IMG/VR virus record: IMGVR_UViG_3300045284_000065
Location: 27,555-91,554 of that record
Source of the DNA: a virus
Direction: 5' to 3' (one strand)
Length of the DNA stretch: 64,000 bases
In this document: in pieces, positions 1-64,000 of the stretch
How the letters are laid out: every line of letters starts with the position of its first letter
How positions within the stretch are numbered: the stretch's first letter is position 1
Notes under the pieces: generated by a model
What the model saw: the letters and a program-made list of their open reading frames with translations, nothing else
What the model was told of the DNA's origin: nothing
The model's database searches: none
Translations under genes and position numbers: made by a program

Positions 1-3000
1 AGTGGTGCCGAAGAGGCCAGACGTTCCCTTGGACCTGATGCCGAAGGTGACCGGCGTGTTCTCGGTGACCGCCGCCGCTGTGTATGTCACCCCGGCCTGG
101 GTCGTCTTCAGGACACCGTTGACATACACCTCGTACTGGTAGCCGCTGCCACCAGTAGCCGCCGTCCATGCCACATGGGCATCCGTTGACGACGACGACG
201 CTGCGTTCACCCCGGTGACATCGGCGGGCTTGGTCACGATGCTCACAATGGCTGAGTACGGTCCACTACCCGCTGGTGTGCCACTAGCCGATCCGTTGAC
301 GCCCTTGATGCGGTACCAGTAGGTCGTGTTGGCAGTGAGGCCTGAGTCGGTGTACGTGGTGAGGCCAACAGTGGTGGTCAGAATGGTCGGCCAGGTCGTC
401 CCGTTGGTCGAGCGCTCCAAGGAGATACCGGTCAGCGCTTCTGCTGCTGTCCACGCAGGCCAGGTGAGCACCACGGCGTAGCCGGTGGAAGCGTTGGCTG
501 CGGTCAGCACCTTCGCCGTCGGTGGCTGCAAGAGGATCTGGGTAGTCTCGAACCAGAGGTCACCAACAGCGACGCCGTTCGCCACCGTGGGCTGCTGGTC
601 ACCGATCCAGATATCAGCAGAGACGGCACCGTCAGTGGCGTGTACCTCCAGGATCTCGGGGTGGCTGTGCCCAAGGGCTGCGTAGGCAATGTCACCCTCG
701 GTCGGGGTGAGATACTGGGGGTGCGGGTCTGGCTGGGCAACGTGGAGGGCGACCGCCCCGAGCTTCTCGTAGAGGAGATCGTGGTTGTGGACGATGGGGG
801 CGTAGAGATCATCCGCTTCGTCCTCGGTGAGGTAGAGGCCTGCTGCTTCATCTGCGTCGAGGTACTGGGAGTGAGGATCGTTGTAGACCTGCCCCGCCGC
901 TGCCAGGGTGACCGGCACGGTGTATCCGGGCGGTGCCGTCGTGCCATAGGTGATGCTGATCAGCGTGGGGTCTGTCTCGGTGTCGAGCACCGGCCACTTC
1001 TTGTTGAGGGCAGGGTCAACGTTGGTCAGGTTGATGTAGCTGTTCGGCAGGATGCTGTGCCGTGGGTCCACCGTCAGGGTGAGCACACCGTTCGGGTTCC
1101 ACGACCAGCCGCTCACCGCCCAAGAGTCCTGGATCTGGTGGTTGATGACCTGCTGACGGATCTCGGCCTGGTGGTTGTGGACGAGGGGTGCGTACTTCAC
1201 CACCTCACCGCTGTCGTCGTACTCCTCCAGGAAGTACTGCGGGTGCGGATCAGCAGCGGCGAGGTGATCCAGCATCACGTTCTTGACGTACGTCTCGGAC
1301 GAGAAGGGGATGTACTGGAAGACCATGTCGGCCAACGTCAGGTCAGTGCCCGCATCGTGGGCCGGGTTCGTCGGGTTGAAGAGGGGGTCGATGGCGATGA
1401 TCCAGTCGCCGTTCGCAAGCTCTGCCTGCTTGTCGGTGCCCACGTCGTAACGACCTGACGCATCGCTGTCGATGAAGTCGAGGACACCGCCCGAACTGCA
1501 CACCCAGTACATGCCGTGGCGATAGACGGTGGGGCCAAGCTCCCAGGAGGGGGCGGGCTTGGCGTGCGTGGTCCGGTATGCCTCGGCGTCGTACGTACCG
1601 ACGTAGAGGAGGTCACCGAGCAGTGCCTCCAACCCCGCCTGAGTGGCGAAGAAGGTGGCGTGGTAGGTGTCGAGCATGTCGGCGTTGATGCCGCTGCTAT
1701 CGACGGTATGACCCTGGTTGCCCTGGTGCCAGACCTTGCTCGTCTTGTACTTCAGGTTGGTGGCGTCAAGCGACATCAGGGCCGTGCCACCAGCACCGGC
1801 AAGCCCAGCGACGTTGTCGTGAGCACCACCCTGGTACCAGTAGAAGGCGGTGTTGGCGCGGGAGTACAGCGTGTCCTGTCCTGCACCGCCTGTGCCCTGA
1901 ATGCCGAAGCCATGCGTGGTGCTGGCGAGGAGCAGGTGCTGACCCTGGCGAGAGCCGAAGGTGAGTTGGGCACCCGTCCCGGTGATGTTCAGGCTGCCCG
2001 GAGTGATCGTGCCGCCCGTCAGTTGGAGGTACCCGGCGACGACTGCCGCTGGCGTGACGGCCACGGTGGCGAGCGGTGAGGCAGCGATGGCCTCGGCCAA
2101 GGTCGACAGGCGAGCGACACCGACGACTGCAGTCGTGGCTGCGGCCACGGTCAGTGATCGGTTGGCCGTCAGGTCACCACCTCCTGCGAGTGGTGCCGTC
2201 GTGCTGATGGTGATCGTCTTGTCGGCCTTGCCGTTGGTCAGGGTGCTGAGATCAGTGACGAGGTTGGTGACATCGGCCTCGACGATGTTGGCGAAGGAAC
2301 CGGGGACGCTGGACCCTGCCGACTTGAGGAACTGACCAGTAGTGCCTGGGCTGATCGTCACCTCGGCCGCTGTGACCGTGGCACCGGCAGCGATGATCCC
2401 GTTGGCAATGCTGGTGGTGCTCCGCCCGGTGCCACCGTCAGCCACCGCCACATCCACGCCGCCCGTGGTGTAGAAGTCCGAGTCGGAGTTGGCAATGTTG
2501 AACTGGCTCGCCGTCCCGACGAGGGTGTTACTCGTCAGGTTGATCGTCTTACCGGTGAGCGTCTCGGTACCGGCGAGGGTGGCGAAATCATTATCGGTGA
2601 GGGCGGTGTTGAACTGACTGGTAGTACCAGTCAGCGTGTTGGTGGCGAGGCTGATCGACTTGGCGGTCAGCGTCTCGGTGCCAGCCAAGGTGGCGAAGTC
2701 GTTGTCACTGAGCGCCGTGTTGAACTGAGCGGTGGTGCCCGACAGCGTGTTCGACAGCAGGTTGAGCGTCTTGTTGGTCAGGGTCTGGATGCCAGCCAAC
2801 GTGACGAGCAGCGAGGTGTCAGCGATGCCGTGGACCGTCGTCGTAGCCCCGGTGTGGGCGGTGAAGGAAGCAACCGAGGTGAGGTCGGCGTCAGTCACCG
2901 CCGTGTTGAACTGAGCGAGCGTGCCGCTGACGGTGTTGCTGCCAAGAGCGATCGTCTTGTTGGTCAGCGTCTCGATGCCCGCCAACGTGGCGAAGTCATC

Positions 3001-4503
3001 ACCAACGAGCGCCGTGTTGAACTGCCCCGTCGTCCCAGTGAGGGTGTTGCTCGTCAGATCGATGGTCTTGTTGGTCAGCGTCGCCACCGCTGAGTTCTTG
3101 GCAGCGTCAGATGTGTTGTCGACATTGCCCAGGCCTACGTCACCCTTGACGAGGGCGAGCATGGTCTTCACCGTGGCCGGGGCGAGGTCCTCGGGGTCAC
3201 CGGTACCAGCTGTGTTACGACCCCGGATCGTCTGCGTCGCCATGTCAGCGAGCTTGGCGAGGGTGACCGAGTTGTCCACGATGTCAGCGGTGGTGACCGA
3301 GGACTTGGTGGCGAGCGCACCGAGACCGCTGACATCGAGGTTGGTGATCCCGGCGAAGGCAGCGAGTGCAGCAGCACCACCCGACTTCAGAAACTGACCC
3401 GTAGTCCCTGGCCCGATCGTCTGCTGCGCGCCAGTTGCCGTGGTGCCCGCGGCGATAAGGCCATATGCCGTGGTGCTGGTGGCCCGACCGGTACCACCCT
3501 GAACCACGGTGACCGGGATGCTCAGGCCGAGGGCGGTGAGCAGGTTGGCGACGGTCACGTCGGTCGGTGCTGCCACACCGGCCGTGTTGTTCATCTTCAC
3601 GGTGTTGGCTGGCATCGTCGCCAGGTCGGCGTTGGCGATGGTGCCGTCCGTGATGTCGGCCGAGACGATGGTGCTCTTGAGAGCCAGCGATCCGAGGCCT
3701 GCCACCTTGGCGTTGGGCAGCAGGCTGGCCCCCGTGTACTCACCGAGGTCGAGCACCGCCGTGGCCTCGACACCGACAGCGGTCACGTCGATCCCGTTGC
3801 CGAACACCAGCGAGGTGAAGGCCGTGCCGAGGGAGGTGGTGTCCTCCTTGACGGTGATGCCAGAGATGCCACCACCGGCACCAGGTGGCGAGGCCCAGTT
3901 GCCATCGGCCCGCAGGAAGTTGGAGGCACCACCACCCGAGGCGGGCACCACACCCGACGAGGCTGCGCCGAACGTGCTGACGGCGATGGTCCGGTTCGCT
4001 GAGATGTCACCGCCACCAGTGAGTGGTGCAGTGACGCTGATCGCCGTCGTCTTGTCGGCCTTGGCGTTGAGCGCTGTGCTCGTAGCCCCGGAGATGGGCT
4101 TGCTGGCGTCGGCGGTGTTGTCGACGTTGCCGAGGCCGAGGGTGGTCCTCATCTCAGACGTGGTGGCATCGTCCAGCACCGTCTTGGCCACGGGCGTGAC
4201 CACGGTGGGATCGAGGAGCCATGACGTGCCGGTCCCCGACACGATGATGTCGCCCTTGTCGCCGTCCGTTACCCCAGTGCCGCCGTTCGTCCCGCCACCA
4301 CCGCTCTCGCCGTGCCACACGGGGAACGCTGGGTCACCAGCGCGGAAGGTGACCCACCCCATGCCGACGCTGGTCGGCATGCCACCGACGAAGTCGGTGA
4401 CGGTGACCGTGGCCTCGCCATAGACCTGAGGGATCTGAGCGGTCAGCGAGACCGTGTCGAGCTTGACCGCCTTCGCACGGTAGAGACCTGGGAAGGTCGC
4501 CAT
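1..4503 (-). CDS. Baseplate spike (gp5/gpV-like OB-fold) fused to a long tail fibre with FN3 domains; C-terminus truncated by the window edge (at least 1501 aa)
   Basis: ATG at 4503. Segments translated by hand are open and the track reports no closed ORF in this frame, so it appears open to position 1. N-terminus MATFPGLYRAKAVKLDTVSLTAQIPQVYG...GMGWVTFRAGDPAFPVWHG matches the spike OB-fold pattern. Fibre motifs LGLGNVDNT(A/S)DA, KVWHQGNQG...INADMLD and DPHPQY/HxH follow, then FN3-like LTANTTYWYRIKGVN. Confidence 0.85.
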   Translation of the reverse strand, partial: MATFPGLYRAKAVKLDTVSLTAQIPQVYGEATVTVTDFVGGMPTSVGMGWVTFRAGDPAFPVWHGESGGGGTNGGTGVTDGDKGDIIVSGTGTSWLLDPTVVTPVAKTVLDDATTSEMRTTLGLGNVDNTADASKPISGATSTALNAKADKTTAISVTAPLTGGGDISANRTIAVSTFGAASSGVVPASGGGASNFLRADGNWASPPGAGGGISGITVKEDTTSLGTAFTSLVFGNGIDVTAVGVEATAVLDLGEYTGASLLPNAKVAGLGSLALKSTIVSADITDGTIANADLATMPANTVKMNNTAGVAAPTDVTVANLLTALGLSIPVTVVQGGTGRATSTTAYGLIAAGTTATGAQQTIGPGTTGQFLKSGGAAALAAFAGITNLDVSGLGALATKSSVTTADIVDNSVTLAKLADMATQTIRGRNTAGTGDPEDLAPATVKTMLALVKGDVGLGNVDNTSDAAKNSAVATLTNKTIDLTSNTLTGTTGQFNTALVGDDFATLAGIETLTNKTIALGSNTVSGTLAQFNTAVTDADLTSVASFTAHTGATTTVHGIADTSLLVTLAGIQTLTNKTLNLLSNTLSGTTAQFNTALSDNDFATLAGTETLTAKSISLATNTLTGTTSQFNTALTDNDFATLAGTETLTGKTINLTSNTLVGTASQFNIANSDSDFYTTGGVDVAVADGGTGRSTTSIANGIIAAGATVTAAEVTISPGTTGQFLKSAGSSVPGSFANIVEADVTNLVTDLSTLTNGKADKTITISTTAPLAGGGDLTANRSLTVAAATTAVVGVARLSTLAEAIAASPLATVAVTPAAVVAGYLQLTGGTITPGSLNITGTGAQLTFGSRQGQHLLLASTTHGFGIQGTGGAGQDTLYSRANTAFYWYQGGAHDNVAGLAGAGGTALMSLDATNLKYKTSKVWHQGNQGHTVDSSGINADMLDTYHATFFATQAGLEALLGDLLYVGTYDAEAYRTTHAKPAPSWELGPTVYRHGMYWVCSSGGVLDFIDSDASGRYDVGTDKQAELANGDWIIAIDPLFNPTNPAHDAGTDLTLADMVFQYIPFSSETYVKNVMLDHLAAADPHPQYFLEEYDDSGEVVKYAPLVHNHQAEIRQQVINHQIQDSWAVSGWSWNPNGVLTLTVDPRHSILPNSYINLTNVDPALNKKWPVLDTETDPTLISITYGTTAPPGYTVPVTLAAAGQVYNDPHSQYLDADEAAGLYLTEDEADDLYAPIVHNHDLLYEKLGAVALHVAQPDPHPQYLTPTEGDIAYAALGHSHPEILEVHATDGAVSADIWIGDQQPTVANGVAVGDLWFETTQILLQPPTAKVLTAANASTGYAVVLTWPAWTAAEALTGISLERSTNGTTWPTILTTTVGLTTYTDSGLTANTTYWYRIKGVNGSASGTPAGSGPYSAIVSIVTKPADVTGVNAASSSSTDAHVAWTAATGGSGYQYEVYVNGVLKTTQAGVTYTAAAVTENTPVTFGIRSKGTSGLFGTT
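2480..3090 (-). repeat. Five 37-aa (111-nt) fibre repeats, consensus TLAGxETLTNKTIxLxSNTLxGTxxQFNTALxDxDF
   Basis: The anchor 'aactg' (QF) recurs at 2501, 2612, 2723, 2909 and 3020: 111-nt spacing with one 186-nt gap. Confidence 0.9.
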
Positions 4504-4504: not shown

Positions 4505-4912
4505 TCACCGCATGAAGAGGCGGAACGTCTGCGCCGAGATCTCCCCGCCGTCGTCACCGGGCACGTTGTCGAACCCAATGGCGCAGCCGAGGTCGACACC
4601 ACGCACTGCGACGTAGCCCCTGGCGATAGCGATGGCCTTGCACGACTGAGCCACGGCACCAGCACCGATGGCCCGGATGGTGGGCATCTTGAGGTCGTTG
4701 AAGATGTAGCCCTGGATGGCGAAGGCGAGCGACTGCGGTGTGGTCGTGCCCTTGACCATGATCAGACCCTCAGTCTCCTCGTCAGGGTCGAGGCGCGAGA
4801 ACATCACGCGCTCGGCTGGGCCTGTCTCGGAGTGGGGTCGACGGCGACGGTGATTCGGGGGGGCCACTGCTGGCGTGACCAGGTTCCAGCGATCCAGGAC
4901 TGGATCATCCAC
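4505..4912 (-). CDS. spoVS: SpoVS (stage V sporulation protein S / Alba-like) family protein
   Basis: IMVKGTTTPQSLAFAI...IRAIGAGAVAQSCKAIAIARGYVAVRGVDLGCAIGF matches the SpoVS signature AIGAGAxNQAxKAxAIARGxVAPxGxDL. A GAGGAG RBS lies before the GTG. Confidence 0.88.
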   Translation of the reverse strand: MDDPVLDRWNLVTPAVAPPNHRRRRPHSETGPAERVMFSRLDPDEETEGLIMVKGTTTPQSLAFAIQGYIFNDLKMPTIRAIGAGAVAQSCKAIAIARGYVAVRGVDLGCAIGFDNVPGDDGGEISAQTFRLFMR

Positions 4913-4953: not shown

Positions 4954-5475
4954 TCAGTCGGCCCCGATCAGGGTGGGCTTCTTCGTGCGCGGCACACGGT
5001 TCTCGCTGATCCAGTAGGCCGTCATCAGGCAGGCCTCGGCGCGGCCATCATGCTTGACCATCTTGAAGCTCTCGGACCACTCGGGCCAGCGCTCGGTCGC
5101 ACGCTGACGCGAGAGGGCCTTGTCCTGGTTCAGGTGCATCTTGGTCTTCCAATGCCCCGCTGGCATGTGGACGATCGGGATGTCGAGAGCAGCGAGGACA
5201 CCGAGGATCTTGCCGTAGCCGACGCCGTAGGTGAACACCCCGGCCACGCCCTGCTTGGGCATCGAGTGGGCCTGCTCGACCACCGCTGTGTGGACCGGTC
5301 CATATCCCTGTATCAAGCGGGTGAGCATGTGAGCGTTCACCTCCTTGCCGATGCAGGGCATGTCCTCCAGGTCAGAGATGCTGGCGTCCTGTAACCGGAG
5401 GAACGCCAGCGCCCCCTTCTGACCGGGGTCGATGCCCAGGATGATGACGGCGTTGCGACCCACGCTGGGACTCAT
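4954..5475 (-). CDS. RuvC-like Holliday junction resolvase
   Basis: ILGIDPGQKGA, VVEQ, GVFTYGVGYG and HDGRAEA motifs; ATGA overlap with the upstream gene. Confidence 0.85.
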   Translation of the reverse strand: MSPSVGRNAVIILGIDPGQKGALAFLRLQDASISDLEDMPCIGKEVNAHMLTRLIQGYGPVHTAVVEQAHSMPKQGVAGVFTYGVGYGKILGVLAALDIPIVHMPAGHWKTKMHLNQDKALSRQRATERWPEWSESFKMVKHDGRAEACLMTAYWISENRVPRTKKPTLIGAD

Positions 5476-5963: not shown

Positions 5964-6870
5964 GGTTCTCCTCCAGGTCCCAACAGGTGCTCCGGTAGAC
6001 GCATGAGGCACAGACCTTGTCGCCGGGACGGGTAGCCCATATCGGCCTATCCGGTGCGATCCCTGCTCGTACCCCTTGAGCTACATCCTTCGCCATCTCC
6101 AGTACAGGAGCGATGAATGACTTATTGTAGCTCACCACGAACTCCTTGGTCGCCTGGGTGAACTTGCTCTCGTACACGAAGATGATCTGCTCGTACGCAG
6201 GCCAGGCCATCCACAGGTACAGCTGACCCTGACGCATGTGGGAGCCGAAGGGATGTGATATCGAGAACCAGATGTCCTCGGCCGACTTGCCGTCGAGGTA
6301 CTGCTGGTAGAGGCGGGGTGCCTCGAAGCGCAGGGTGCCCAGGCCGATGGACTTGATCTCCACCAGCGCCCGCTCGGGGAGGTGGACGGCGGCGTCAGCG
6401 TGGCCCTCCACCATGAAGTTGTTGTGTCGGAGGGGGTACTCCTTGTACTCCAGCCGCTCGCTCTGACAGAACTGGCAGGCCTGAGGAGACATGTCGTACC
6501 ACTGGTGGCCGCACTCCCTGCAGTGCCACATGCCGACGAGGATGCCCATCTCCCAGAACCAGGTCTGCCACTTGGCGTGGATGGCGTGGCCCTCGGAGAA
6601 GACGTTGCTCATCCTGAAGCTGGGGTTGGCCTTGGACACCCGGCCGATCGGTGCCCCGGTGATGGAGTAGTAGTCGTGCCGCCCGCACCAGTCGGTCTTC
6701 GCCATGTCGGAGGGGTGCATGTGCTTGGCCGAGTGGTCGTCGGGACGCCCACCCGTCGCCGTCTTCATGACGTGGCGCTCCACCTGGGGCAGCAGCAGGC
6801 CACTGGTGGACTTGAACGTGCCCTTCAGTCGCTGGAGTGCGGAGTCACGGAGAGGGCGGGGCAAAGTCAC
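5875..6870 (-). CDS. Cas4-like PD-(D/E)XK exonuclease with an inserted Zn ribbon
   Basis: HPSD..WCGR, EGHAIH, GHAD, EIKS, QGQLY and C-terminal CxxCxxxxxC, plus an extra CRECG..CQFC. Confidence 0.82.
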   Translation of the reverse strand: MTLPRPLRDSALQRLKGTFKSTSGLLLPQVERHVMKTATGGRPDDHSAKHMHPSDMAKTDWCGRHDYYSITGAPIGRVSKANPSFRMSNVFSEGHAIHAKWQTWFWEMGILVGMWHCRECGHQWYDMSPQACQFCQSERLEYKEYPLRHNNFMVEGHADAAVHLPERALVEIKSIGLGTLRFEAPRLYQQYLDGKSAEDIWFSISHPFGSHMRQGQLYLWMAWPAYEQIIFVYESKFTQATKEFVVSYNKSFIAPVLEMAKDVAQGVRAGIAPDRPIWATRPGDKVCASCVYRSTCWDLEENHEIEAPTPTPRVQRAKPGKRRASLRTPAV

Positions 6871-9251: not shown

Positions 9252-11243
9252 TCACTTCTTCTTCGCTGCCGCCCAGGAGTACCCGATCTTGGAAGACACG
9301 ATAAGCGGGATCTCCCCGAGGATGGGGGACCCGGAGAGGTCGGTGACGCCAGTCATGGTGTCGGACACCAGCGCGAGCACCTCTTCAGCGTAGGCCTCCT
9401 CGCAGCGCACGATGATCTCGTCGTGGACCTGAAGCACCATCTGCGCTGGATATGCCGATATGCGTTGGTACAGGTTGAGCATGGCGATCTTCGTGATGTA
9501 GCTGGCGAAGCCCTGGACCAAGGCGTTGATGGCCTGGCGCTCGGCCCGCCAGCGCATCCACTCCTCCTCCTTGTGGTACTTCATCAGGTCCGGGAGACGA
9601 CGGAGCCTGCCGATGGGAGGGATGATGATCGTCGGCGGGTCAGTCGAGGGGCTGGCCGGGTCGCACCGGTCCCGGGCCTCGGCCAGCACCCGCTTCTTCC
9701 AGGGTTCAAGCCCGCCGAACATCTCGTAGTAACCATCGATGAGCTTCTGCGCCCGACGCTTGGAGCACTTGGCTACGTATGCAATCTTGTTCACCCCAGC
9801 GCCGTAGATGATGGCGAAGTTCTGCGTCTTGCCGACCGCCCGCTGCTCCTCGGTGACCTTGTCGAGGGGGATGTTCCACATGGCTGCCGCCGCCTGGCGG
9901 TGGACATCGTCACCACGCTTGAACACGGTCAGCATGTTGGGGTCGCCCGACTCGTAGCCAGCACACCGCAACTCCACCTGGTCGTAGTCGGCCACGATGA
10001 GGACGTGGCCTGGCCCAGCGATGAACAGTTCACGAATGACCGAGGACTTGGGGATCTGGTGGAGGTTGGGCTTCTCCGCTGAGAACCTGCCGGTGACGGT
10101 GCCGTGCTGCTTGAAGCTGGTGTGCAGCCGGGGTAGGCCGGAGTCGCGCTTGCTCAGGTACTTGTCGAAGCCAACGACGAAGGTGCCGCGCAGCTTCTCG
10201 TAGGCCGACCACTCCAGGAACAGGCGGGCTACCTCGTTGCTGCTGGCGTAGCGCTCCAGGAGCGCCTTGTTCAGCTGGGCGGCGTCGGTCTTGGCCGTGC
10301 GGTTGAGGGGGGTGAGGCCCTGGGGCTTCAGTGGGTGGCCGCTGGTGCCGACTGGTATCTCCTTGCCCTTCTCCACCTCACCGAACAGCACGTAGCGCTT
10401 GACCGAGAGGTTCGACATCGGGATCTCGTCCCCGACCAACTGGCCCACGTCCTTCTCGATCTGAGCGATGGAGGTGGTCAACTCCTCGCCCACCTTCTCC
10501 ATCGCTGACAGGTCGATGGGGAACCCGGCCGACTCCATGTCCATGAGCACCGGATACATGCTCATCTCGAAGTCGTAGACGGCCTTCAGTCCCCGCTTGA
10601 TGAGCTTGGGCCACAGCCTCTTGTAGAGGTACCGGGTGTAGACGAGGTCCTTGTTGAGGTACGAGGCGATCTCGTCCAGCCCGAAGTTCTCGACGCCCTT
10701 GGTCCCGAGCGAGGGGTACCACTTCTTGCGGTCGGCCGGTCGGAACCAGTCGATCGACAACTCCTTCAACCCGTACATGGGGAGTGACTCATCGATGACG
10801 TGCTGCAGGACGAGGGTGTCGTGGTAGGGGCCGGGTGGGATCCGACCGCCGAAGTACTTGGCGATGGTCTGCAGGTCGAACTTCAGATGGTGGTTGAGCT
10901 TGGCCCGGTCGCTGAACAGCAGCGGTTCGATCAACTCGGCCACCTGGTAGGGGTACAGCTGGCGCGGCGGCGGGGCGTAGGTCGCTGGCACCAGGTGCTC
11001 CACCATCCGCATCGACGGCTTGCCGGTAGGAGTCAGGCCGCGCTCGTCGCTCCAGAGCAACGAGGCTGGCGTCTTCTCCTTCTTCTGCACCGTGAGCCGG
11101 TGCCCCTTGGGGTGGCCGCAGGGGATCAGGAAGGTGTGGGCCGTGCAACCGAGGCCGCACCACAGCATCTCGTTGGTCTGCGTGTCGAGTCCGTTCGTCT
11201 CCAGGTCGATGACGAACGTGTCCTCACGGAGAAGCAGGTCCAC
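9252..11243 (-). CDS. polA: Family A DNA polymerase (3'-5' exonuclease plus polymerase)
   Basis: ExoI IDLETNG, HHLKFD, TGRFSAEKPNLHQIP, motif A ADYDQVELR, motif B RAVGKTQNFAIIYG, motif C LQVHDE. Confidence 0.95.
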   Translation of the reverse strand: MDLLLREDTFVIDLETNGLDTQTNEMLWCGLGCTAHTFLIPCGHPKGHRLTVQKKEKTPASLLWSDERGLTPTGKPSMRMVEHLVPATYAPPPRQLYPYQVAELIEPLLFSDRAKLNHHLKFDLQTIAKYFGGRIPPGPYHDTLVLQHVIDESLPMYGLKELSIDWFRPADRKKWYPSLGTKGVENFGLDEIASYLNKDLVYTRYLYKRLWPKLIKRGLKAVYDFEMSMYPVLMDMESAGFPIDLSAMEKVGEELTTSIAQIEKDVGQLVGDEIPMSNLSVKRYVLFGEVEKGKEIPVGTSGHPLKPQGLTPLNRTAKTDAAQLNKALLERYASSNEVARLFLEWSAYEKLRGTFVVGFDKYLSKRDSGLPRLHTSFKQHGTVTGRFSAEKPNLHQIPKSSVIRELFIAGPGHVLIVADYDQVELRCAGYESGDPNMLTVFKRGDDVHRQAAAAMWNIPLDKVTEEQRAVGKTQNFAIIYGAGVNKIAYVAKCSKRRAQKLIDGYYEMFGGLEPWKKRVLAEARDRCDPASPSTDPPTIIIPPIGRLRRLPDLMKYHKEEEWMRWRAERQAINALVQGFASYITKIAMLNLYQRISAYPAQMVLQVHDEIIVRCEEAYAEEVLALVSDTMTGVTDLSGSPILGEIPLIVSSKIGYSWAAAKKK

Positions 11244-12025: not shown

Positions 12026-12469
12026 TCAGTGATCGGCTTGAAGCGCTGCGAACGCTTTGCCTACATCCAGTGCGAACGAGCGGGTCGGTGGTTGCCGGTT
12101 GAGGATCACCTTGTGCTTGTCAGCAAGCGAAAGGATACATTCGATCTGCTCCCGTGTCCACAACCGACGCCCCTTCGTGGGGTGCTTCGCACCCGGCTTG
12201 GCGTTGGTCGGCTGGGACCGGTAGGGGGAGCGGGGCAGCAGGCCCTGCGTCTCCCACAGGCGGATCGAGTTCTGGCTGTAGCCGATGGCCTTGGCGAGCG
12301 CCGAGATGGGGAAGAACTGGACGACCTTGCCGTTGACGACGCCATCGGTCGGGCGTGCATCCCATATCGGCTTATCAGGAGGGGGACCCTCCTTCTTGTC
12401 TCGGTTGACCGGCTTGCGTCGGCCGGGGTAGTCCAGGTCACCGAAGAGTCGATCGACCGAGTCACTCAC
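12026..12469 (-). CDS. MerR-like helix-turn-helix DNA-binding protein
   Basis: ISALAKAIGYSQNSIRLWETQGLLP...RRLWTREQIE; probable GTG start at 12469. Confidence 0.78.
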   Translation of the reverse strand: MSDSVDRLFGDLDYPGRRKPVNRDKKEGPPPDKPIWDARPTDGVVNGKVVQFFPISALAKAIGYSQNSIRLWETQGLLPRSPYRSQPTNAKPGAKHPTKGRRLWTREQIECILSLADKHKVILNRQPPTRSFALDVGKAFAALQADH

Positions 12470-20440: not shown

Positions 20441-20450
20441 ATCAGGATAT
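20439..20450. promoter_or_regulatory. ATATC-NN-GATAT palindrome (perfect copy)
   Basis: ATATCAGGATAT at a gene junction. Confidence 0.6.
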
Positions 20451-49383: not shown

Positions 49384-50132
49384 CAGAGGTTGCTGTCGTA
49401 GAGGATGTCGATCACCTCGACATCAGTCGACTGTGTGCCCTCGGGGATCGCCGGGTAGATGCGCTCAGGCGGGCGGGGGTCATCGAACTCACGATCGATG
49501 TACACCGGCACGAAGCGCCCGGTCATCTTGGCCACCCGGCGCAGGCGCGACTGATCGAGGGAGTTGAGGCCCATGTTCAGCATCGCCGCCTTGTTGTTGT
49601 ACTCCGTCTCGAAGTTCTGGAGCATCTGGACGACCTGGGTGAAGCGCTGGCGGGCCGGGATGAACATGCCCTCGGGCGTCGATACGTCGATATCGAGCGA
49701 CAGTTCCATCGCCAGCGACCACAGGGCGGAGACCACTCCGCCGAGCATGATCACGTCGTAGTGGACCGGCTGGAAGGTCGTCACGTCGCCGCCGTAGCTC
49801 ACCTCATGGACCGACTTGCCGACGTGGAAGGCCAGGTCAGCGTCCGAGAACCAGGTGTAGTGGTACCCGGCCACCACCAGCGACTTGCCGAGATCGGCAG
49901 CCTCGGTGAGCTTCAGCAACCCGGCGCGCTCGTCCAGCTGCCAGTCCGTGGTCAACGATGCAGCGCCAGCGTCGGGAGTGACGTAGACCTGCAGCGAGGA
50001 CGGGGCGATCAGGGGATGTGGGAGGCGCACCGTGAGCACGTTGAGCACCCCGGCGTCGACCTCGAAGTACTGGGGGAAGTCCCGCAGGTAGTTGCGTGCC
50101 CCGGCGGTCAGGTCATCAGTGGTGGTGGGCAT
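49383..50132 (-). CDS. Head-tail adaptor / neck protein
   Basis: GGAGG RBS; YTWFSDADL, DIDVSTPEG..IP..QRF, RLRRVAK.TGR.VP; gene position. Confidence 0.65.
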   Translation of the reverse strand: MPTTTDDLTAGARNYLRDFPQYFEVDAGVLNVLTVRLPHPLIAPSSLQVYVTPDAGAASLTTDWQLDERAGLLKLTEAADLGKSLVVAGYHYTWFSDADLAFHVGKSVHEVSYGGDVTTFQPVHYDVIMLGGVVSALWSLAMELSLDIDVSTPEGMFIPARQRFTQVVQMLQNFETEYNNKAAMLNMGLNSLDQSRLRRVAKMTGRFVPVYIDREFDDPRPPERIYPAIPEGTQSTDVEVIDILYDSNL

Positions 50133-50166
50133 GGGGATACCTCCATATGGAGCGTAGATGATCGCC

Positions 50167-56796: not shown

Positions 56797-57497
56797 GGGA
56801 CACGCCCGTTGGGGCCGACGAAGTACGGCATGACTGTGGTGCTGCCGCTGCCGTCGTCCACGACAACGGGTGGCAGGAAGTCGGTGGAAGTGACGCGGGG
56901 CAAGATCGTGACCGTGCCGTAGATCCAGGTGCGGATCTGATCGGTGGTGGGCCACGGCTCGGGGTCCTCCACGCCGGGGGGCTTGGGGAAGCCCGCCACG
57001 TCGATGGGCGACTTGGAGTACAGGTCCCAGTTGTAGATCCCGATGTAGGGGTTCTCGCTGCGGGGCAGGAACAGCGTCACCGTGGTGTAGCCGGGGTCGT
57101 CGGCGGTCGGCGGCGTGTACTCGTCCTTGACGGCGAAGGTGGTGACCAGGGTCGAGTGGTAGGTGTGGCAGATACGGATCTGCGCCGACCAGTCCCACGT
57201 CGTGCTCATGTCGGGGGTGGTGTCGGCCGGGTCCAGGATCGTCAACGGGATCGTCACGTCGTCGCCCTGGTACCAGGTCAGGTCGACCCGGCTGGGGACG
57301 TTGGACCAGGTGTCGGTGCTGGATCCAGAGCCGAGAGCGGCACCCGATCCAGAGGTGATCGCTGGATAGAACGGTATGGGCTGGTACATCGGCTCTCCCG
57401 GTAGAAGCTCAGTCGCCAGTGTGACCATCTCGGCCGTGGTGGCGATGCGATTTGGGCCGTCCCAACCGCTGCGGCGTGCTACGTACCCGGCGCTCAT
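56793..57497 (-). CDS. Virion structural protein (Ig/BppU-like)
   Basis: DLTWYQGDD...WSAQIR...YNWDL...TWIYGTVTI. Confidence 0.65.
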   Translation of the reverse strand: MSAGYVARRSGWDGPNRIATTAEMVTLATELLPGEPMYQPIPFYPAITSGSGAALGSGSSTDTWSNVPSRVDLTWYQGDDVTIPLTILDPADTTPDMSTTWDWSAQIRICHTYHSTLVTTFAVKDEYTPPTADDPGYTTVTLFLPRSENPYIGIYNWDLYSKSPIDVAGFPKPPGVEDPEPWPTTDQIRTWIYGTVTILPRVTSTDFLPPVVVDDGSGSTTVMPYFVGPNGRVP

Positions 57498-59086
57498 CAG
57501 GTCCTGATGTAGTAATACATCGTGAAGAAGTTGGGGGTGAAGTCAATGGCGTTGGGGGACTTCTTGCCGTAGACCGCCTGGATCATGTCGTGGTCGTGAT
57601 TCTGCGGTGTGCCCTCGAAGGCGTGACCGTGGGGACCACCCTGGACGGTCTGGTTGGCCGAGAGGCCAGCGCCCTGGACCAGCGCCAGGTCCGACGACGT
57701 GGGGGACACCTCCTTGTTGGTGTACATGGGGGTGAGCACGGCGTTGGCCCCGACCGTCGCACCATCGTTCACCGGGGTCACGGTCGCCGCCACCGTGGCG
57801 ATGCCGGTGTTGTGGTGGTGCGGCGTCTCGGTGTCCTTGTGCGAGTGGTCGGGCAGGGCGTGCGTGTGGGGGCCGGTGGTGGCCTGGATGATCCCCTTGG
57901 GCGTCACCGAGGTGGGGTTGGCGTTGACCGAGTGGTGGTGCTCGGGGATGTTGGCCTCGATCAGCACGTAGGTGTTGGTCTTGCGCTCCACCCCGCCGAT
58001 GACCGGGCCGAAGTTGGCCACACCAGCGGCCGAGAAGTTGGGCATGACTACCCGGCTGGTCAGGTTGGGCAGGGCCACCTGACGGTGGGGGGCATATCCC
58101 GATACGTAGTCGGCCAGGGCGGCGATGGTGAACAGGCCGGGGTAGTCGTCCTCCAGGGCGGTCCTGCCGTTCAGGGGCAGCCAGCCCTTGGCCTCCATGC
58201 GGGCGATCGACTCCAGGGACATGATCACGGTGCCGACCGGGATCATGTTGCCCATCGTGGCGATCTCGTCCCACTCCAGCCCGCCGAGGGGAGCATCGTT
58301 GGCGATGTAGACCGAGCCGTTGTTGGGGTTCTGCCAGAAGTCGCCCTTGTTCGGCAGCGTCGGCGGGGAGGTCGCTCGACGCAGGTTGCGCGCCTGGATA
58401 TCGGCTGATGCCGATATGCCCTCGGCCGTCACCGTCTTGGCTGCCAGAGCCGCCTTGACGACGAGGTTGTCCTCGATCTGCAGCGTCTTCTCCCCGGATC
58501 GCTGCATCGTGGTGTCGCTGCCCCATATCGTGCGGCCGTCGCCGTAGACCCGGTACCAGTCCTGGAGCGGTGCGCCAGCACTGGCTCCGGGGGCCTTGAA
58601 GTTGCGGATCAGGTCGTCGCCAGCGTTGATGCTCGTCATCAGCGCCGGGGCCAGGAACTTGCGCTTGTCGATGACGAAGTCAGCGAGGCTGGCCCCCTCC
58701 TTGCAGTAGACCGCCGCCAGGATGGTGGCGTTCACCGGAGGGTCGGGGTAGTAGGGGTCGTTGGACTCCTTGCCCGGCATGACGTAGGGCTTCCCGGCAT
58801 CGTTGACCAGGATCAGGTCGAACTTGGAGGTGCCGCTCGGGACCGAGACGAACAGGTCGGCGGTCTCGACGTAGACGAACTTGCCGTTGACCATGGCCGA
58901 CCCGGGGGAGACCTTGATCTGGTTGGACCCGGACCCGGTGACCTGGCAGCCCTCCAACACGCCCCAGCGGCCCTGGGACATCGTGTTGAAGTCGATCCTG
59001 TCTGGCTCGGAGAGCAGTGGCTCCGTCACCGTTCCGGCGTTGGGGATCAGGAACCCACCATGAGCCACTGATGGGCGTGCCACCAC
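57497..59086 (-). CDS. Fibre protein with a tail-collar domain and HxH tip
   Basis: IPVGTVI...GWLPLNG...YPGLF...LPNL; HHH, HTH, HSH, HGH and HDH motifs; PNFFTMYYYIR end. Confidence 0.8.
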   Translation of the reverse strand: MVARPSVAHGGFLIPNAGTVTEPLLSEPDRIDFNTMSQGRWGVLEGCQVTGSGSNQIKVSPGSAMVNGKFVYVETADLFVSVPSGTSKFDLILVNDAGKPYVMPGKESNDPYYPDPPVNATILAAVYCKEGASLADFVIDKRKFLAPALMTSINAGDDLIRNFKAPGASAGAPLQDWYRVYGDGRTIWGSDTTMQRSGEKTLQIEDNLVVKAALAAKTVTAEGISASADIQARNLRRATSPPTLPNKGDFWQNPNNGSVYIANDAPLGGLEWDEIATMGNMIPVGTVIMSLESIARMEAKGWLPLNGRTALEDDYPGLFTIAALADYVSGYAPHRQVALPNLTSRVVMPNFSAAGVANFGPVIGGVERKTNTYVLIEANIPEHHHSVNANPTSVTPKGIIQATTGPHTHALPDHSHKDTETPHHHNTGIATVAATVTPVNDGATVGANAVLTPMYTNKEVSPTSSDLALVQGAGLSANQTVQGGPHGHAFEGTPQNHDHDMIQAVYGKKSPNAIDFTPNFFTMYYYIRT

Positions 59087-59417: not shown

Positions 59418-59456
59418 GTGTTCCTTCTGATATGCCGATATGCGATCGAGTCGAGA

Positions 59457-59999: not shown

Positions 60000-60027
60000 G
60001 GGGATACCTCCGTATCAGGATCATGGG

Positions 60028-62308: not shown

Positions 62309-62385
62309 TGTTCACGAACCTCCCGAGACACCAGTAATACCACAATCGGCCCGCATATCCAGGTATGACACTGCGCTTAGGGACA

Positions 62386-64000
62386 TCAGTCGGTGCTCTG
62401 TTCCTCGTAGTCCATCACCTCAGGCGGGTACATGCCGTAGGCGAGGAACTGCATCTCCTGGGCCAGCGCCGGGTCCACTGGTGGCGTCGCTGGCACCGGG
62501 TTGCCCTCGGCATCGGCCGTCATCATGGGCTGCCCGTCCGGTGTCATACCGGTCGCCATCATGTTGAAGGCGGCGATCTGGCTCTGGATGAGGGTGAGGG
62601 CACCCTGCTCCTTGGTGTCCTCCAGCATCTCCTCGAAGATCTCCCGGATCTTCTGGTCCGGGAACTGGATCCCGAGGTCGCGCAGCGCGCCGCGGCGGGA
62701 CTCCAGGCTCATCGCCATCTTGGCCTGGATCTCGTTGATCTTGATGAGCGTGTCCATCGGCATCGGGCTGGGCCAGTCGACGTAGTTCCGATATGACACT
62801 GGAGAGGACGGGTCCAGCTGGGGCACCTGGTCGGGCTTCAGCATCGTGGAGGACAGCTGCGGGTTGTACACCGTCAGTTCGGGGGCGTAGATGAAGGCGT
62901 GCTTGATGATCAGTTCGTTGATGCGCTGGAAGAAGGGGACGTACTGGATCTTCTTGCGCTCATGCTTCAGCATCAGGGGCTGGTACTGCATGGAGAGCGC
63001 CACGCCTGATGTGTTACTGATCGGCTGCATCGTGCCCAGGGCGGCAGCAGGGACGCCCATGAACTCATGCATCGACTGCTTCAGAAGCTCCATGTAGCCG
63101 AGGGGGCCGGTGAAGTTGGTCTGAAGCTCCAGGTTCTGGACCTTGGCGTCCTTGTTGCCGATGGCCCACACCTTGCGGGCACCCTTCTCCAGGTTGGAGG
63201 CCTTGGCCCCCGTGATCACCGTGACCGGAGCGACGTGGTAGTTGATGATGTCGCTGATCTCGGTGGCCTTCTCGTTGTACTCCCGGTTGAGGGGGATGAT
63301 GTCGTTGGCATCACCCAGCCCCCAAGGAGACGAGGCCACGGCGAAGTTCTGCGTGTACACGACCGGTATCTCACCGAGCGGGTTGGGCCGCTGGTCGATC
63401 ATCTCGTCGTTGATGTACTCCTCGATGGTGTCCTCGGTCATCAGTTCGACGTAGGTCATCACCATGCGCGAGCCGTCCTGGGCCGTGCCCCAGAACTTGT
63501 ACTTCAGCTTGAAGCGGATCATCCGCGAGCGGTCATGCGGATGCCACTCGGGGAAGCAGAAGGCCGGATTCAGAGGGAGTATCCGAATCCGGCCCTCATG
63601 CGGCAGACCAGCGGTGTCCATGAACGGCGGCTCGTAGGCCACCTTGGCGAACACGTCACCGCTGACAGCACCCAGCTGGCCGAACTCCATCAGCAGGGCG
63701 GGCTTGGAGTTGTGGATCTCCCACACCTCCTTGAGCAGGTAGGGCGTGATGGCCCCAGTGATCTCGGGGGAGTGGAAGTTGATGCCCTTGCCGAAGCTGA
63801 AGTTGACCAGGAAGTCGATGAAGGCCCGGACCCAGTTGAAGGTCAGCTGCGGCTCCCCGATCTCACGGCGGTACGCCCACTGGTGGCCCAGGTACCACGC
63901 CCAGTTGTTGGCATATCGGGATAAGCGGGGGCCGTGTACCTCGAACTCCTCGTCGGCGAGTTCGACGAGGCCCAGGGGGCTGATGGCGAGGGTGAGGTCA
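62386..64000 (-). CDS. Portal protein (N-terminus truncated by the window edge)
   Basis: Frame is open to the window end: DLTLAISPLGLVELADEEFEVHGPRLSRY...WYLGHQW; also GAVSGDVF and ISNTSGVAL. Confidence 0.92.
   Translation of the reverse strand, partial: DLTLAISPLGLVELADEEFEVHGPRLSRYANNWAWYLGHQWAYRREIGEPQLTFNWVRAFIDFLVNFSFGKGINFHSPEITGAITPYLLKEVWEIHNSKPALLMEFGQLGAVSGDVFAKVAYEPPFMDTAGLPHEGRIRILPLNPAFCFPEWHPHDRSRMIRFKLKYKFWGTAQDGSRMVMTYVELMTEDTIEEYINDEMIDQRPNPLGEIPVVYTQNFAVASSPWGLGDANDIIPLNREYNEKATEISDIINYHVAPVTVITGAKASNLEKGARKVWAIGNKDAKVQNLELQTNFTGPLGYMELLKQSMHEFMGVPAAALGTMQPISNTSGVALSMQYQPLMLKHERKKIQYVPFFQRINELIIKHAFIYAPELTVYNPQLSSTMLKPDQVPQLDPSSPVSYRNYVDWPSPMPMDTLIKINEIQAKMAMSLESRRGALRDLGIQFPDQKIREIFEEMLEDTKEQGALTLIQSQIAAFNMMATGMTPDGQPMMTADAEGNPVPATPPVDPALAQEMQFLAYGMYPPEVMDYEEQSTD

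What the first reader, a model, noticed from the sequence alone, without database searches (positions are those of the whole stretch)
603..63924. Genome-wide dispersed AT-rich palindrome ATATC-NN-GATAT written into coding sequence with rare codons
Seen: perfect copies start at 15330, 20439, 28797 and 41825. One-mismatch copies start at 9450, 16987, 32538, 37981, 47953, 58094, 59430, 62355 and 63913. Two-mismatch copies start at 603, 5302, 6039, 12364, 23373, 25805, 35399, 46094, 49682, 50137 and 53221. A stretched palindrome ATATCGGC-TGAT-GCCGATAT sits at 58398. My hand estimate, assuming 66% GC and independent bases, is about 0.005 perfect and about 0.2 one-mismatch sites expected in 64 kb, against 4 and 9 found by eye. 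Most copies are intragenic and force codons this genome otherwise avoids: ATA TCG GGA TAT (ISGY) in both the helicase and the tail wedge, ATA TCG GCA TAT in the polymerase, ATA TTG GGA TAT in the primase, ATA TTG CGA TAT in the fibre and TTA TCC CGA TAT in the portal. That points to selection on the DNA rather than the protein. Inference: a binding site for a dimeric protein that marks the whole genome every few kb. Known analogies are stoperators, parS/Noc/ram-type chromosome-organising sites and self-recognition marks. Candidate binders in the window are the MerR-like HTH (12026), RHH (13300), C2H2 (12462), winged-HTH (19069) and LmbU-like (21760) proteins.
Basis: partly seen in the sequence, partly recalled or inferred. 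Interest (0 to 1): 0.9.

Follow-up and report, generated by a model that had tools for sequence, protein, structure and literature searches.

The report
Dispersed ATA-N6-TAT docking sites, phage
An uncultured high-GC soil phage and its relatives carry a short mirror-image DNA word (ATA, six letters, TAT) every 2-3 kb, even inside genes where it needs rare codons. It is most likely a set of docking sites for an unidentified two-fold symmetric DNA-binding protein, a kind of array already seen in other phages and still unexplained.

Summary
The 91.5-kb record has 39, against 0-2 at every other spacing.

- **Selection on DNA:** sites fall in all three reading frames. They hold 31% of all ATA codons and 23% of all TAT codons. 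Synonymous shuffling makes almost none.
- **Conservation:** in a relative 75% identical, all 13 aligned sites keep the core. That includes 18 of 18 third-codon positions, against 38% for other A/T third positions.
- **Range:** the whole clade (capsid identity 68% or more) has 23-41 sites per 100-118 kb. Four related phages have none, including Streptomyces phage BRock. A more distant clade uses ATA-N4/5-TAT.
- **Bacteria:** four bacterial genomes (one isolate, three MAGs) hold the word only at chance level.
- **Spacing:** unusually even here, in one fragmentary close relative and in the N4/5 clade, but not in two complete relatives or a third fragment.
- **Ruled out or weakened:** hairpins, phage N6-methylases (two families searched), integrase and ParB are not supported.

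Best reading: docking sites for a symmetric dimeric protein. The binder is unidentified.

The scan has found similar evenly spaced phage palindrome arrays on other DNA. The closest published case is the Cluster O mycobacteriophage 17-bp repeat.

The parts
3455..3466 (.). core site ATAAGGCCATAT, inside the giant spike/fibre ORF (1-4665, minus strand)
5302..5313 (.). core site ATATCCCTGTAT, inside ORF 4954-5484. The ORF looks RuvC-like by eye; Pfam gave no hit.
6039..6050 (.). core site ATATCGGCCTAT, inside ORF 5875-6870
9450..9461 (.). core site ATATGCCGATAT in the DNA polymerase gene. The coding strand reads ATA TCG GCA TAT.
12364..12375 (.). core site ATATCGGCTTAT, inside the 5' part of the MerR-like gene (12026-12469)
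15330..15341 (.). perfect site ATATCCCGATAT in the helicase gene (ATA TCG GGA TAT)
16789..16800 (.). core site in the primase gene. The same position is a site in the distant relatives G006 and G007.
16987..16998 (.). core site ATATCCCAATAT in the primase gene (ATA TTG GGA TAT)
20439..20450 (.). perfect site spanning the stop codon of ORF 20442-20969 and the start codon of ORF 20213-20440
23253..23264 (.). core site in the divergent intergenic region 23176-23521
23373..23384 (.). core site ATATGCCTATAT in the same intergenic region. The ATA/TAT core is kept in G002.
25805..25816 (.). core site inside ORF 24478-25953, identical in G002
28797..28808 (.). perfect site in the 2046-aa ORF 25950-32090 (ATA TCG GGA TAT), identical in G002 although the region is only 68% identical
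30910..30921 (.). core site in the same 2046-aa ORF, identical in G002
32538..32549 (.). near-site GTATCCCGATAT in the baseplate wedge gene (one core mismatch), not kept in G002
35399..35410 (.). core site in the baseplate hub gene. It is kept in G002, G006 and G007 at 41-49% protein identity. An ATA (Ile) codon is replaced by CTA (Leu), which keeps the TAT.
37981..37992 (.). core site ATATCGCCATAT where ORFs 36199-38070 and 37749-40886 overlap
41825..41836 (.). perfect site in the 20-nt gap upstream of baseplate gene 41021-41821. It is kept in G002 and G003 while the flanks diverge.
46094..46105 (.). core site near the 5' end of ORF 45758-46144
47953..47964 (.). core site ATATCGCAATAT in fibre gene 46225-48063, kept in G002 and G003
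49682..49693 (.). core site in ORF 49383-50219. The ATA/TAT core is kept in G001-G003 and the whole 12-mer is identical in G006.
50137..50148 (.). core site with a Shine-Dalgarno centre. The coding strand reads ATATGGAGGTAT, then CCCC, then ATG. Kept in G001-G003.
53301..53312 (.). core site in the 1957-aa ORF 50167-56040. The same position is a site in G007.
57366..57377 (.). core site in ORF 56793-57497
58094..58105 (.). near-site ATATCCCGATAC (one core mismatch) in ORF 57497-59086, not kept in relatives
59430..59441 (.). core site ATATGCCGATAT, 13 nt upstream of ORF 59103-59417, identical in G003
60004..60015 (.). core site with a Shine-Dalgarno centre (coding strand ATACGGAGGTAT), just upstream of ORF 59457-59999
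62355..62366 (.). core site between the portal gene and ORF 61496-62308. The core is kept in G001 and G002.
63913..63924 (.). near-site ATATCGGGATAA (one core mismatch), identical in G001-G003
12026..12469 (-). candidate binder: MerR-type winged helix protein of about 147 aa with no coiled coil. It is conserved in motif-bearing relatives, but also in two relatives without the motif.
19069..20121 (-). candidate binder: winged-helix protein, weakly like phage replication initiators. It lies upstream of the helicase-primase genes and was found only in the N6 clade.
4505..4759 (-). candidate binder: SpoVS (Alba-fold) protein of 84 aa. It is in all motif-bearing genomes tested, but also in three phages without the motif.

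Best explanation
The sites are docking points on double-stranded DNA for a two-fold symmetric (dimeric) sequence-specific protein, most likely phage-encoded. Each half of the protein reads one S-ATA half-site. The G/C-rich spacer is not read base by base, but its length is fixed within a lineage: N6 in this clade, N4 or N5 in a distant one.

The array covers the whole genome rather than the promoters. I therefore infer a genome-wide role, such as marking, organising or loading a factor along phage DNA, with some sites also placed over early promoters and ribosome-binding regions.

- **Shown:** the sites exist, are under purifying selection as DNA, are symmetric, are lineage-specific, and stand at chance level in the bacterial genomes tested.
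- **Inferred:** that a protein binds them, that it is a dimer, that the phage encodes it, and what the binding does.
For: **Spacing specificity.** The record has 39 sites at N6 against 0-2 at all other spacings. The window has 26 against 0.43 expected.

**Selection on the DNA.**
- Sites fall in all three frames and use rare codons. 14 of 45 ATA codons and 20 of 86 TAT codons lie in the 0.5% of the genome made of sites.
- Synonymous shuffles make almost none.
- Against G002 (75% identical), 13 of 13 aligned sites keep the core. 18 of 18 core third-codon positions are kept, against 38% of other A/T third positions (P = 3e-8).
- By the stricter ATAT-N4-ATAT measure, core identity is 92% against 75% in the flanks. 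The conserved footprint is about 14-18 bp.
- At 45-50% protein identity, G006 shares 3 of 16 and G007 shares 4 of 17 intragenic positions (P = 2e-8 and 2e-11).

**Symmetry and self-containment.** No information lies outside positions -3 to +14. The consensus is palindromic, G-ATA-C-N4-G-TAT-C.

**Not a hairpin.** The inner spacer positions pair less often than expected. Only 2-3 of 10 sites fold better than shuffles.

**Range.**
- Each clade member has 23-41 sites.
- Relatives G008, G011, G012 and BRock have none above chance.
- The phage contig G009:C3 has 28 sites at N4, 26 at N5 and 0 at N6.
- Bacterial genomes show chance levels, 23 against 20 control in 9.8 Mb. For the N4 form, 15 of 18 copies in a 3.6-Mb MAG lie on its 110-kb phage contig.

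**Even spacing.** The coefficient of variation of gaps is 0.59 here (P = 0.0003), 0.58 in G003 (P = 0.04) and 0.63 in G009:C3 (P < 0.0002).

**Early promoters in relatives.** In G007, 5 of 10 early-promoter-like elements carry a site over the -35 or -10 element.
Against: - No binder was identified and no binding was shown.
- Six-frame searches found no ParB, HU, CsoR/RcnR, HTH_3, AbrB or HTH_17 protein in motif-bearing genomes.
- The conserved MerR-like protein also occurs in phages without the motif, and its recognition helix does not co-vary with the motif.
- Two spacer lengths (N4 and N5) in one genome are awkward for a rigid dimer.
- Even spacing is not significant in G002, G006 or G007. 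A lattice role is therefore not general.
- A host protein cannot be excluded, because the host is unknown.
Confidence: 0.5

Rival explanations
1. The sites are an ordinary operator network. A phage temporal regulator, either a repressor or an activator, binds them to control transcription initiation. The intragenic copies would be internal promoters or operators, or weakly selected extras.
For: - In G007, 5 of 10 promoter-like elements of the form TTGTGA-N16-18-TAnnnT carry a perfect site over the -35 or -10 element. G006 has near-sites at the same places.
- Sites are about four times enriched in intergenic DNA (10 of 39 in 9% of the genome).
- 21% lie within 100 nt upstream of a start codon, against 8% expected.
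- About a fifth carry a Shine-Dalgarno core on the coding strand (28 against 6).
Against: - About two thirds of sites lie deep inside genes, distributed like random points relative to gene ends.
- No sigma-70-like promoter or terminator-like site overlaps any of the 26 window sites.
- No -10-like element sits at a fixed distance.
- Even spacing in two lineages, and sites about 3 kb apart inside 6-kb genes, are not expected of operators.
Confidence: 0.22
2. The sites are targets of a DNA-modifying or translocating enzyme with bipartite specificity, as in Type I systems. There a half-specificity subunit dimer reads a symmetric 3-N6-3 word, and the spacer length shifts between relatives. The phage would keep the sites to be marked, or to engage such a machine.
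For: - The architecture is a 3-bp half-site, a fixed unread spacer, then a 3-bp half-site.
- Spacer length differs between lineages while the half-sites stay the same, N6 against N4/5.
- That Type I specificity evolves in this way is my own knowledge, not tested here.
Against: - No N6_Mtase (PF02384) or N6_N4_Mtase (PF01555) gene is in G000, G006 or G007, or on the G009 phage contig.
- Targets of restriction are normally depleted in phages, not enriched about 90-fold.
- N4 is shorter than the Type I spacers I know of.
Confidence: 0.08
3. The sites act as nucleic-acid structures or RNA signals. They could be small hairpins in mRNA or single-stranded DNA, or AU-rich flanks that improve ribosome binding.
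For: - Some sites fold well: 47953 gives -12.8 kcal/mol with z = -3.4, and 37981 gives -8.8 kcal/mol.
- A Shine-Dalgarno core sits between ATA and TAT in about a fifth of sites, with a strand bias of 28 to 6.
- Two left-arm sites sit in or beside long hairpins.
Against: - Most sites do not fold better than shuffles.
- Spacer positions 4/7 and 5/6 pair less often than chance (40 against 68 and 37 against 58). The flanks pair at chance, 100 against 93.
- Most sites are far from start codons.
- The core is symmetric on both strands, which RNA function does not require.
Confidence: 0.07
4. The sites are a by-product of base composition, codon usage or a conserved peptide, with no function of their own.
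For: The count of the single word ATAT (79) is only modestly above synonymous shuffles (64). A/T-only tetramers are generally rare in the whole group.
Against: - The spacing is specific: 39 against 0-2.
- Dinucleotide and synonymous shuffles do not reproduce it.
- Sites occur in all frames with different peptides.
- Synonymous positions are conserved.
- Relatives of equal G+C content have none.
Confidence: 0.01

Closest known systems
17-bp dyad repeat of Cluster O mycobacteriophages (TGTTCGG-NNN-CCGAACA; Cresawn et al. 2015, PMC4351075)
   Same: - More than 30 dyad-symmetric copies are spread through the genome of an actinobacteriophage that is not evidently temperate. About a third lie in coding regions.
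- Most are not at promoters and show no orientation.
- The authors predict a dimeric binder and a role other than transcription initiation. The function is unknown.
- Both phages encode a Ku-like protein and an AAA ATPase.
   Different: - The sequences are unrelated.
- Here the half-sites are only 3-4 bp, the spacer is 6 bp and is not read, and about two thirds of sites are intragenic.
- Spacer length differs between lineages.
- Cluster O phages carry a ParB-like domain protein. None was found here.
KorB and its OB operators on IncP plasmid RK2 (ParB family), and the ParB-type palindrome arrays that this scan reported in other phages
   Same: One short palindrome is dispersed over a whole replicon. 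Some copies sit at promoters and some far from any. Even spacing would suit a factor that loads at sites and slides. What I state about KorB is my own knowledge plus earlier scan notes.
   Different: No ParB N-terminal domain is in G000, G006 or G007. The half-sites are much shorter. The replicon is a phage with no sign of lysogeny in the searches made, not a plasmid.
RacA and its ram sites in Bacillus subtilis (MerR-like winged helix; 14-bp GC-rich palindrome)
   Same: A MerR-type winged helix protein binds a dispersed 14-bp palindrome as a symmetric dimer to organise DNA. This is mentioned in PMC5859096; the rest is my own knowledge. This phage has a conserved MerR-type protein.
   Different: - The phage protein has no coiled coil.
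- It also occurs in phages without the motif.
- Its recognition helix does not track the motif.
- The ram sites are GC-rich and cluster near the origin.
Stoperators of Cluster A mycobacteriophages (L5 gp71)
   Same: Dozens of related sites lie across both arms of an actinophage genome, in addition to operators at an early promoter.
   Different: Stoperators are asymmetric 13-mers, oriented with transcription and mostly intergenic, and they serve a lysogenic repressor. Here the sites are symmetric, unoriented and mostly intragenic. No integrase was found.
BldC and phage D29 Gp36 (minimal MerR-like proteins on direct repeats; PMC5859096, PMC12266134)
   Same: These are small MerR-type winged helix proteins without a coiled coil. 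BldC reads a 4-bp AT island through the minor groove plus a C-G four bp away, repeated every 9 bp. Gp36 is a repressor in a lytic actinophage. The local ATAT-SSSS-ATAT form looks similar.
   Different: In the wider clade the half-sites are ATAC and GTAT. They are therefore inverted repeats, not direct ones. The period is 8 bp, not 9.

Membership tests
Cluster O-type dispersed dyad repeats (a descriptive class; function unknown) | 30 or more dyad-symmetric copies spread over the whole phage genome | tested here: met
   The 91.5-kb record has 39 copies, and relatives have 23-41.
Cluster O-type dispersed dyad repeats (a descriptive class; function unknown) | Most copies are not at promoters, many lie in coding regions, and there is no orientation | tested here: met
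   29 of 39 lie in ORFs. None overlaps a promoter-like site. The spacer shows no consistent strand orientation.
Cluster O-type dispersed dyad repeats (a descriptive class; function unknown) | Sequence TGTTCGG-NNN-CCGAACA | tested here: not met
   The word here is S-ATA-N6-TAT-S. The two are alike in kind, not homologous.
Stoperator system (Cluster A mycobacteriophages) | Asymmetric site oriented with transcription | tested here: not met
   The core and consensus are palindromic. There is no orientation.
Stoperator system (Cluster A mycobacteriophages) | Temperate phage with integrase and immunity repressor | tested here: not met
   No PF00589 hit in G000 or in the complete relatives G006 and G007. 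Serine integrases were not searched.
ParB/KorB with parS or OB sites | A ParB N-terminal domain protein is encoded on the replicon | tested here: not met
   No PF02195 hit in G000, G006, G007 or G008.
ParB/KorB with parS or OB sites | Palindrome of 13-16 bp with long specific half-sites | tested here: not met
   Only 3-4 bp per half-site carry information.
Type I restriction-modification target | Bipartite word: 3-5 bp, a fixed unread spacer, then 3-5 bp | tested here: met
   ATA-N6-TAT, with strict spacing.
Type I restriction-modification target | A cognate methylase or specificity subunit is present | tested here: not met
   No PF02384 or PF01555 hit in the phage records. HsdS (PF01420), Dam-class methylases and host enzymes were not tested.
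Type I restriction-modification target | Adenine methylation at the sites | not testable with these tools
   Only assembled contigs of the holding runs are available.
DNA uptake sequences or Chi-type host words | The word is abundant in the host chromosome | tested here: inconclusive
   Counts are at chance level in four bacterial genomes, for example 23 against 20 control in 9.8 Mb. The true host is unknown.
DNA uptake sequences or Chi-type host words | Asymmetric, oriented word (Chi) | tested here: not met
   The core is symmetric.
CsoR/RcnR-type operators (AT-rich inverted repeats around a G/C tract; recalled from memory) | A G or C run lies between AT-rich arms | tested here: inconclusive
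   Pure purine or pyrimidine spacers make up 20% against 11% background in the N6 clade. They make up 54% against 5% in the N5 class of G009.
CsoR/RcnR-type operators (AT-rich inverted repeats around a G/C tract; recalled from memory) | A CsoR/RcnR protein (PF02583) is encoded | tested here: not met
   No hit in G000, G006, G007 or G008.

The most novel reading that the evidence does not exclude
The array is a private identity or organising code of the phage genome. Minimal AT islands in a fixed dyad are written about every 2-3 kb so that no stretch is more than about 5 kb from a site. A phage protein without any catalogued DNA-binding domain reads them, then loads and spreads or slides from each site. 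Spacer length (N6, or N4/5) would act as a lineage-specific dialect that co-evolves with that protein.
Probability: 0.25. Interest if true: 0.8.

Novelty: new variant of a known kind. Interest (0 to 1): 0.62.

Why it matters
Dispersed dyad repeats have been known in phage genomes since the Cluster O mycobacteriophages, and no function has been assigned to them. This scan keeps finding them in large uncultured phages.

This case adds three things:
- **Clear evidence of DNA-level selection.** Every aligned site is kept at synonymous positions. Rare ATA, TAT and even CTA codons are recruited to keep the word.
- **Very small half-sites.** Each is only 3-4 bp, and the spacer length is fixed in one lineage and different in another.
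- **Contrast with bacteria.** Sites are about 170 times denser than in the bacterial genomes tested.

If the reader protein were found, it would show what such arrays do in phages with no sign of lysogeny. The possibilities include genome marking, compaction, loading of a moving factor, and global transcription control.

There is also a practical point. The sites constrain the coding sequence of many phage genes, essential ones among them. Ignoring them would mislead codon-usage and selection analyses of these phages.

Tried and rejected
**Searches for the genome and its setting**
- A megablast of a 6-kb stretch against cultured phages found nothing.
- A scan of viral contigs for the 14-mer ATATCGGGATATGC gave only single, scattered hits.
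- Sequencing runs: five soil metagenomes hold the stretch, all kept only as contigs. No RNA holder is listed, so read ends, nicks and expression could not be examined.

**Ideas about the sites that did not hold up**
- Strict periodicity: the Rayleigh spectrum is not significant.
- Replication-linked orientation of the spacer: the G/C bias of spacers is mixed along G0, G006 and G007.
- A fixed promoter element next to the sites: none found.
- The sister clade G008 has its own motif, TGTT-N5-AACA. It is concentrated in the early region and also occurs in G007, so it is not a replacement for ATA-N6-TAT.

**Attempts to find the binder**
- Gene presence profiling: the only proteins in all motif-bearing genomes and in none of the others are two small virion-module proteins. 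By my reading of their alignments they look structural.
- SpoVS is also in the motif-free phages BRock, G011 and G012.
- The MerR-like recognition helix does not co-vary with the motif.
- PDB sequence search and the ESM Atlas gave only 'MerR-like viral protein' for that candidate.
- About 60 ORFs scanned against Pfam were mostly orphans.

Full report
**What the DNA is.** The window is bases 27555-91554 of a 91,554-bp virus record. CheckV puts the record at 79% complete. It is 64.7% G+C, and almost all genes in the window lie on the minus strand.
- Virion and replication genes identified: portal, major capsid protein, tail sheath, baseplate wedge, DNA polymerase, DnaB-type helicase, a second helicase, and a Toprim/zinc-ribbon primase.
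- Also present: RecA, a Ku homologue with an AAA ATPase, and a SpoVS protein.
- The nearest cultured phage is Streptomyces phage BRock, at 48% capsid identity. BRock is a virulent myovirus (PMC7453282).
- Closer relatives are uncultured soil contigs.
- No tyrosine integrase and no ParB were found in the record or in complete relatives.

**A better definition of the motif.** A/T-only tetramers are almost absent from this genome: AAAA 0, AATT 0, TTTT 1, TATA 3. ATAT, however, occurs 79 times, and 14 pairs stand exactly 8 bp apart. Following a note from another first-stage reader of the same genome, I tested ATA-Nk-TAT at every spacing.
- The record has 39 sites at k = 6, against 0-2 at every other k from 0 to 20.
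- The window has 26, against 0.43 in shuffles, and none at N5.
- Both flanks are G or C in all but a few sites.
- No sequence information lies outside positions -3 to +14.
In this phage and its three closest relatives, positions 4 and 9 are T and A. In the wider clade they are mostly C and G, giving G-ATAC-N4-GTAT-C.

**Selection on the DNA.**
- Sites fall in all three reading frames and encode different peptides.
- ATA is 40 of 1150 isoleucine codons and TAT is 82 of 820 tyrosine codons. With slightly wider gene calls, 14 of 45 ATA and 20 of 86 TAT codons lie inside sites, which cover 0.5% of the genome.
- Shuffling synonymous codons within genes leaves 5.2 ATAT-N4-ATAT pairs against 14 seen. 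About five of those sit in stretches the shuffle did not touch.
- Relatives G002 and G003 are collinear with the record at 68-92% identity. All 13 sites aligned with G002 keep the six core letters.
- The 18 core letters that fall on third codon positions are all kept. Only 38% of other A/T third positions are kept (P = 3e-8).
- By the stricter ATAT-N4-ATAT measure, core identity is 92% against 75% in the flanks. Single ATAT words and other A/T triplets are poorly kept. The conserved footprint is about 14-18 bp.
- At 45-50% protein identity, G006 shares 3 of 16 intragenic site positions and G007 shares 4 of 17 (P = 2e-8 and 2e-11). G008 shares none.
- In the baseplate hub gene the site survives a change from ATA (Ile) to CTA (Leu), another rare codon, which keeps the TAT.
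- Most positions have nevertheless turned over while the number per genome stayed similar.

**Range of the motif.**
- Every relative with capsid identity of about 68% or more has the N6 dyad. G004 to G007 carry 24, 23, 41 and 35 sites per 100-118 kb. The reversed control pattern gives 0-1.
- Four relatives have none above chance: the complete genome G008 (62% capsid identity), a 110-kb contig binned with a Gemmatimonadales MAG (66%), a 112-kb contig in the assembly of Nonomuraea roseoviolacea JCM 3145 (64%), and BRock.
- A more distant 110-kb phage contig (58%), binned with a Microthrixaceae MAG, has 28 ATA-N4-TAT, 26 ATA-N5-TAT and none at N6. Its consensus is cTGATA-N4/5-TATCAg.
- Four bacterial genomes hold S-ATA-N6-TAT-S at chance level, for example 23 against 20 control in 9.8 Mb.
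- For the N4 form, 15 of the 18 copies in the 3.6-Mb MAG lie on its phage contig.

**Placement.**
- Ten of 39 sites are intergenic, in 9% of the genome. Three or four more touch a gene start or junction. The remaining two thirds or so are deep inside genes.
- Relative to gene ends the sites look random, apart from an excess within 100 nt upstream of starts (21% against 8%).
- About a fifth of sites across the clade carry a Shine-Dalgarno core on the coding strand, of the form ATA-yGGAGG-TAT (28 against 6 on the other strand).
- No sigma-70-like promoter or terminator-like site overlaps any window site.
- G006 and G007 have early regions that this incomplete record lacks. There, 8-10 promoter-like elements (TTGTGATACC, a variable stretch, TGTACACT) are built around the half-sites. 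Five of ten in G007 carry a perfect site over the -35 or -10 element.

**Spacing.**
- Gaps are more even than random in this record: coefficient of variation 0.59 against 0.97, P = 0.0003, largest gap 5.0 kb.
- The same holds in G003 (0.58, P = 0.04) and in the N4/5 contig (0.63, P < 0.0002).
- It does not hold in G002, G006 or G007.
- There is no strict period.

**Structure.**
- Spacer positions 4/7 and 5/6 are complementary less often than chance. The flanks are complementary at chance level.
- Only two or three of ten sites fold better than shuffles.
- Spacers lean towards purine or pyrimidine runs, strongly so in the N5 class: 14 of 26 against 5% background.

**What it most likely is.** The word is short, symmetric, self-contained and strictly spaced. 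It is under purifying selection on double-stranded DNA, specific to a lineage, and not a structure. This is best explained as a docking site for a two-fold symmetric protein. The half-site centres are about one helical turn apart, the usual geometry for dimers that fill successive major grooves; this geometry point is my own knowledge. Most sites ignore promoters, and large genes carry internal sites about 3 kb apart. I therefore favour a genome-wide role over plain control of initiation, with promoter and ribosome-site copies as an added layer. This is inference; nothing here shows binding.

**Who reads it.** I could not tell.
The LmbU-like gene has none in G006 or G007.
- Three nucleic-acid-binding candidates are conserved:
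  - A MerR-type winged helix protein without a coiled coil (12026-12469).
  - A winged-helix protein that weakly matches phage replication initiators (19069-20121).
  - A SpoVS protein. SpoVS is predicted to have the dimeric Alba fold (PMC2732212 and PMC11621453).
- The first and third also occur in phages without the motif. The MerR-like recognition helix does not track the motif.
- Six-frame searches found none of ParB, HU, CsoR/RcnR, HTH_3, AbrB, HTH_17, or N6-methylases of two families.

**Comparison with what is known.** The closest published case is the 17-bp dyad repeat of Cluster O mycobacteriophages. It has more than 30 copies, a third of them in genes, and is not tied to promoters. 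Those phages are not evidently temperate, a dimeric binder is predicted, and the function is unknown (PMC4351075). Earlier reports of this scan describe similar evenly spaced palindrome arrays in other large uncultured phages, several of them paired with a ParB-like protein. That pairing is absent here. Stoperators, KorB/OB, RacA/ram and BldC-type sites each share some features and fail on others; the membership table gives the details.

**Verdict.** This is a real, strongly selected cis-element array. It is a new variant of a known but unexplained kind.

Noticed in passing
whole record G000 (window = bases 27555-91554): Several words are strongly depleted. CAGCTC/GAGCTG occurs once against 34 expected, while GAGCTT and GAGCTA are over-represented. 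TGGCCA, CCCGGG, CTAG, CGCG and TCG-N-CGA are also depleted. This looks like restriction avoidance.
   Followed up: no
whole record G000: A/T-only tetramers are almost absent (AAAA 0, AATT 0, TTTT 1, TATA 3), yet ATAT occurs 79 times. Relatives of similar G+C content are equally poor in such words.
   Followed up: partly
window 4505-4759 (-): A SpoVS (Alba-fold) gene of 84 aa matches Pfam at 5.6e-15. It is shared with BRock and most relatives but is missing from the complete relative G008.
   Followed up: partly
window 4954-5484 (-), 7507-8565 (-); L233:4618-5463 (-), L233:5718-7040 (-): The phage has a recombination and repair set: a RuvC-like ORF (a GIDPG motif seen by eye, no Pfam hit), RecA, a Ku homologue and an AAA_5 ATPase.
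   Followed up: no
G007 59.5-72.6 kb (L223, L224); G006 89-102 kb (L219, L220): There are 8-10 near-identical early-promoter-like elements. Each has TTGTGATACC, about 13 nt, then TGTACACT, often followed by ggtatcac. Many form long inverted repeats. None is present in G000-G003 as held.
   Followed up: partly
G008 (L227-L232): The motif-free sister phage has its own palindrome, TGTT-N5-AACA (for example TGTTGTGACAACA). It has 18 copies, nine of them in the first 14 kb. A few copies also occur in G006 and G007.
   Followed up: partly
L241-L247 (Nonomuraea roseoviolacea JCM 3145, contig 24, 112,350 bp): A phage-sized contig with a 64%-identical capsid gene and a SpoVS gene sits in the assembly of a cultured actinomycete. 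This may be a clue to the hosts of the wider group.
   Followed up: partly
L233:9263-9330 and L233:12360-12400: Two left-arm sites with the extended form GG-ATATGGSGATAT-GCCCC lie at the 3' ends of plus-strand genes. One sits just before an 11-bp hairpin and the other in the loop of a 10-bp hairpin (read by eye).
   Followed up: no
window 23300-63900 compared with G002: By hand count, 7 of 19 ends of nucleotide-homology blocks between G000 and G002 lie within 120 bp of a site, where about 2 are expected. Both features favour gene starts, so this may be confounded.
   Followed up: no
window 14018-14046 (-): A promoter-like TTGATA-17-TACACT lies at the junction of the helicase gene and ORF 13526-14029. 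Its -10 hexamer is the same as in the G007 early promoters.
   Followed up: no
whole record G000: The 7-mer TAACACA/TGTGTTA occurs 10 times against 1.5 expected (both strands counted), and the dyad TGTG-N8-CACA 6 times against 0.6. Other first-stage notes describe 29-bp elements and an oriented octamer in the left arm. I did not examine them.
   Followed up: no
L233:10781-11059 (-) and homologues (alignment A3): A small basic Arg/Pro-rich protein has two invariant cysteines and a conserved DPRPRWR-AG stretch. It is 64-68% identical in G006 and G007 and is also found in G008 and G009. It matches no family.
   Followed up: no
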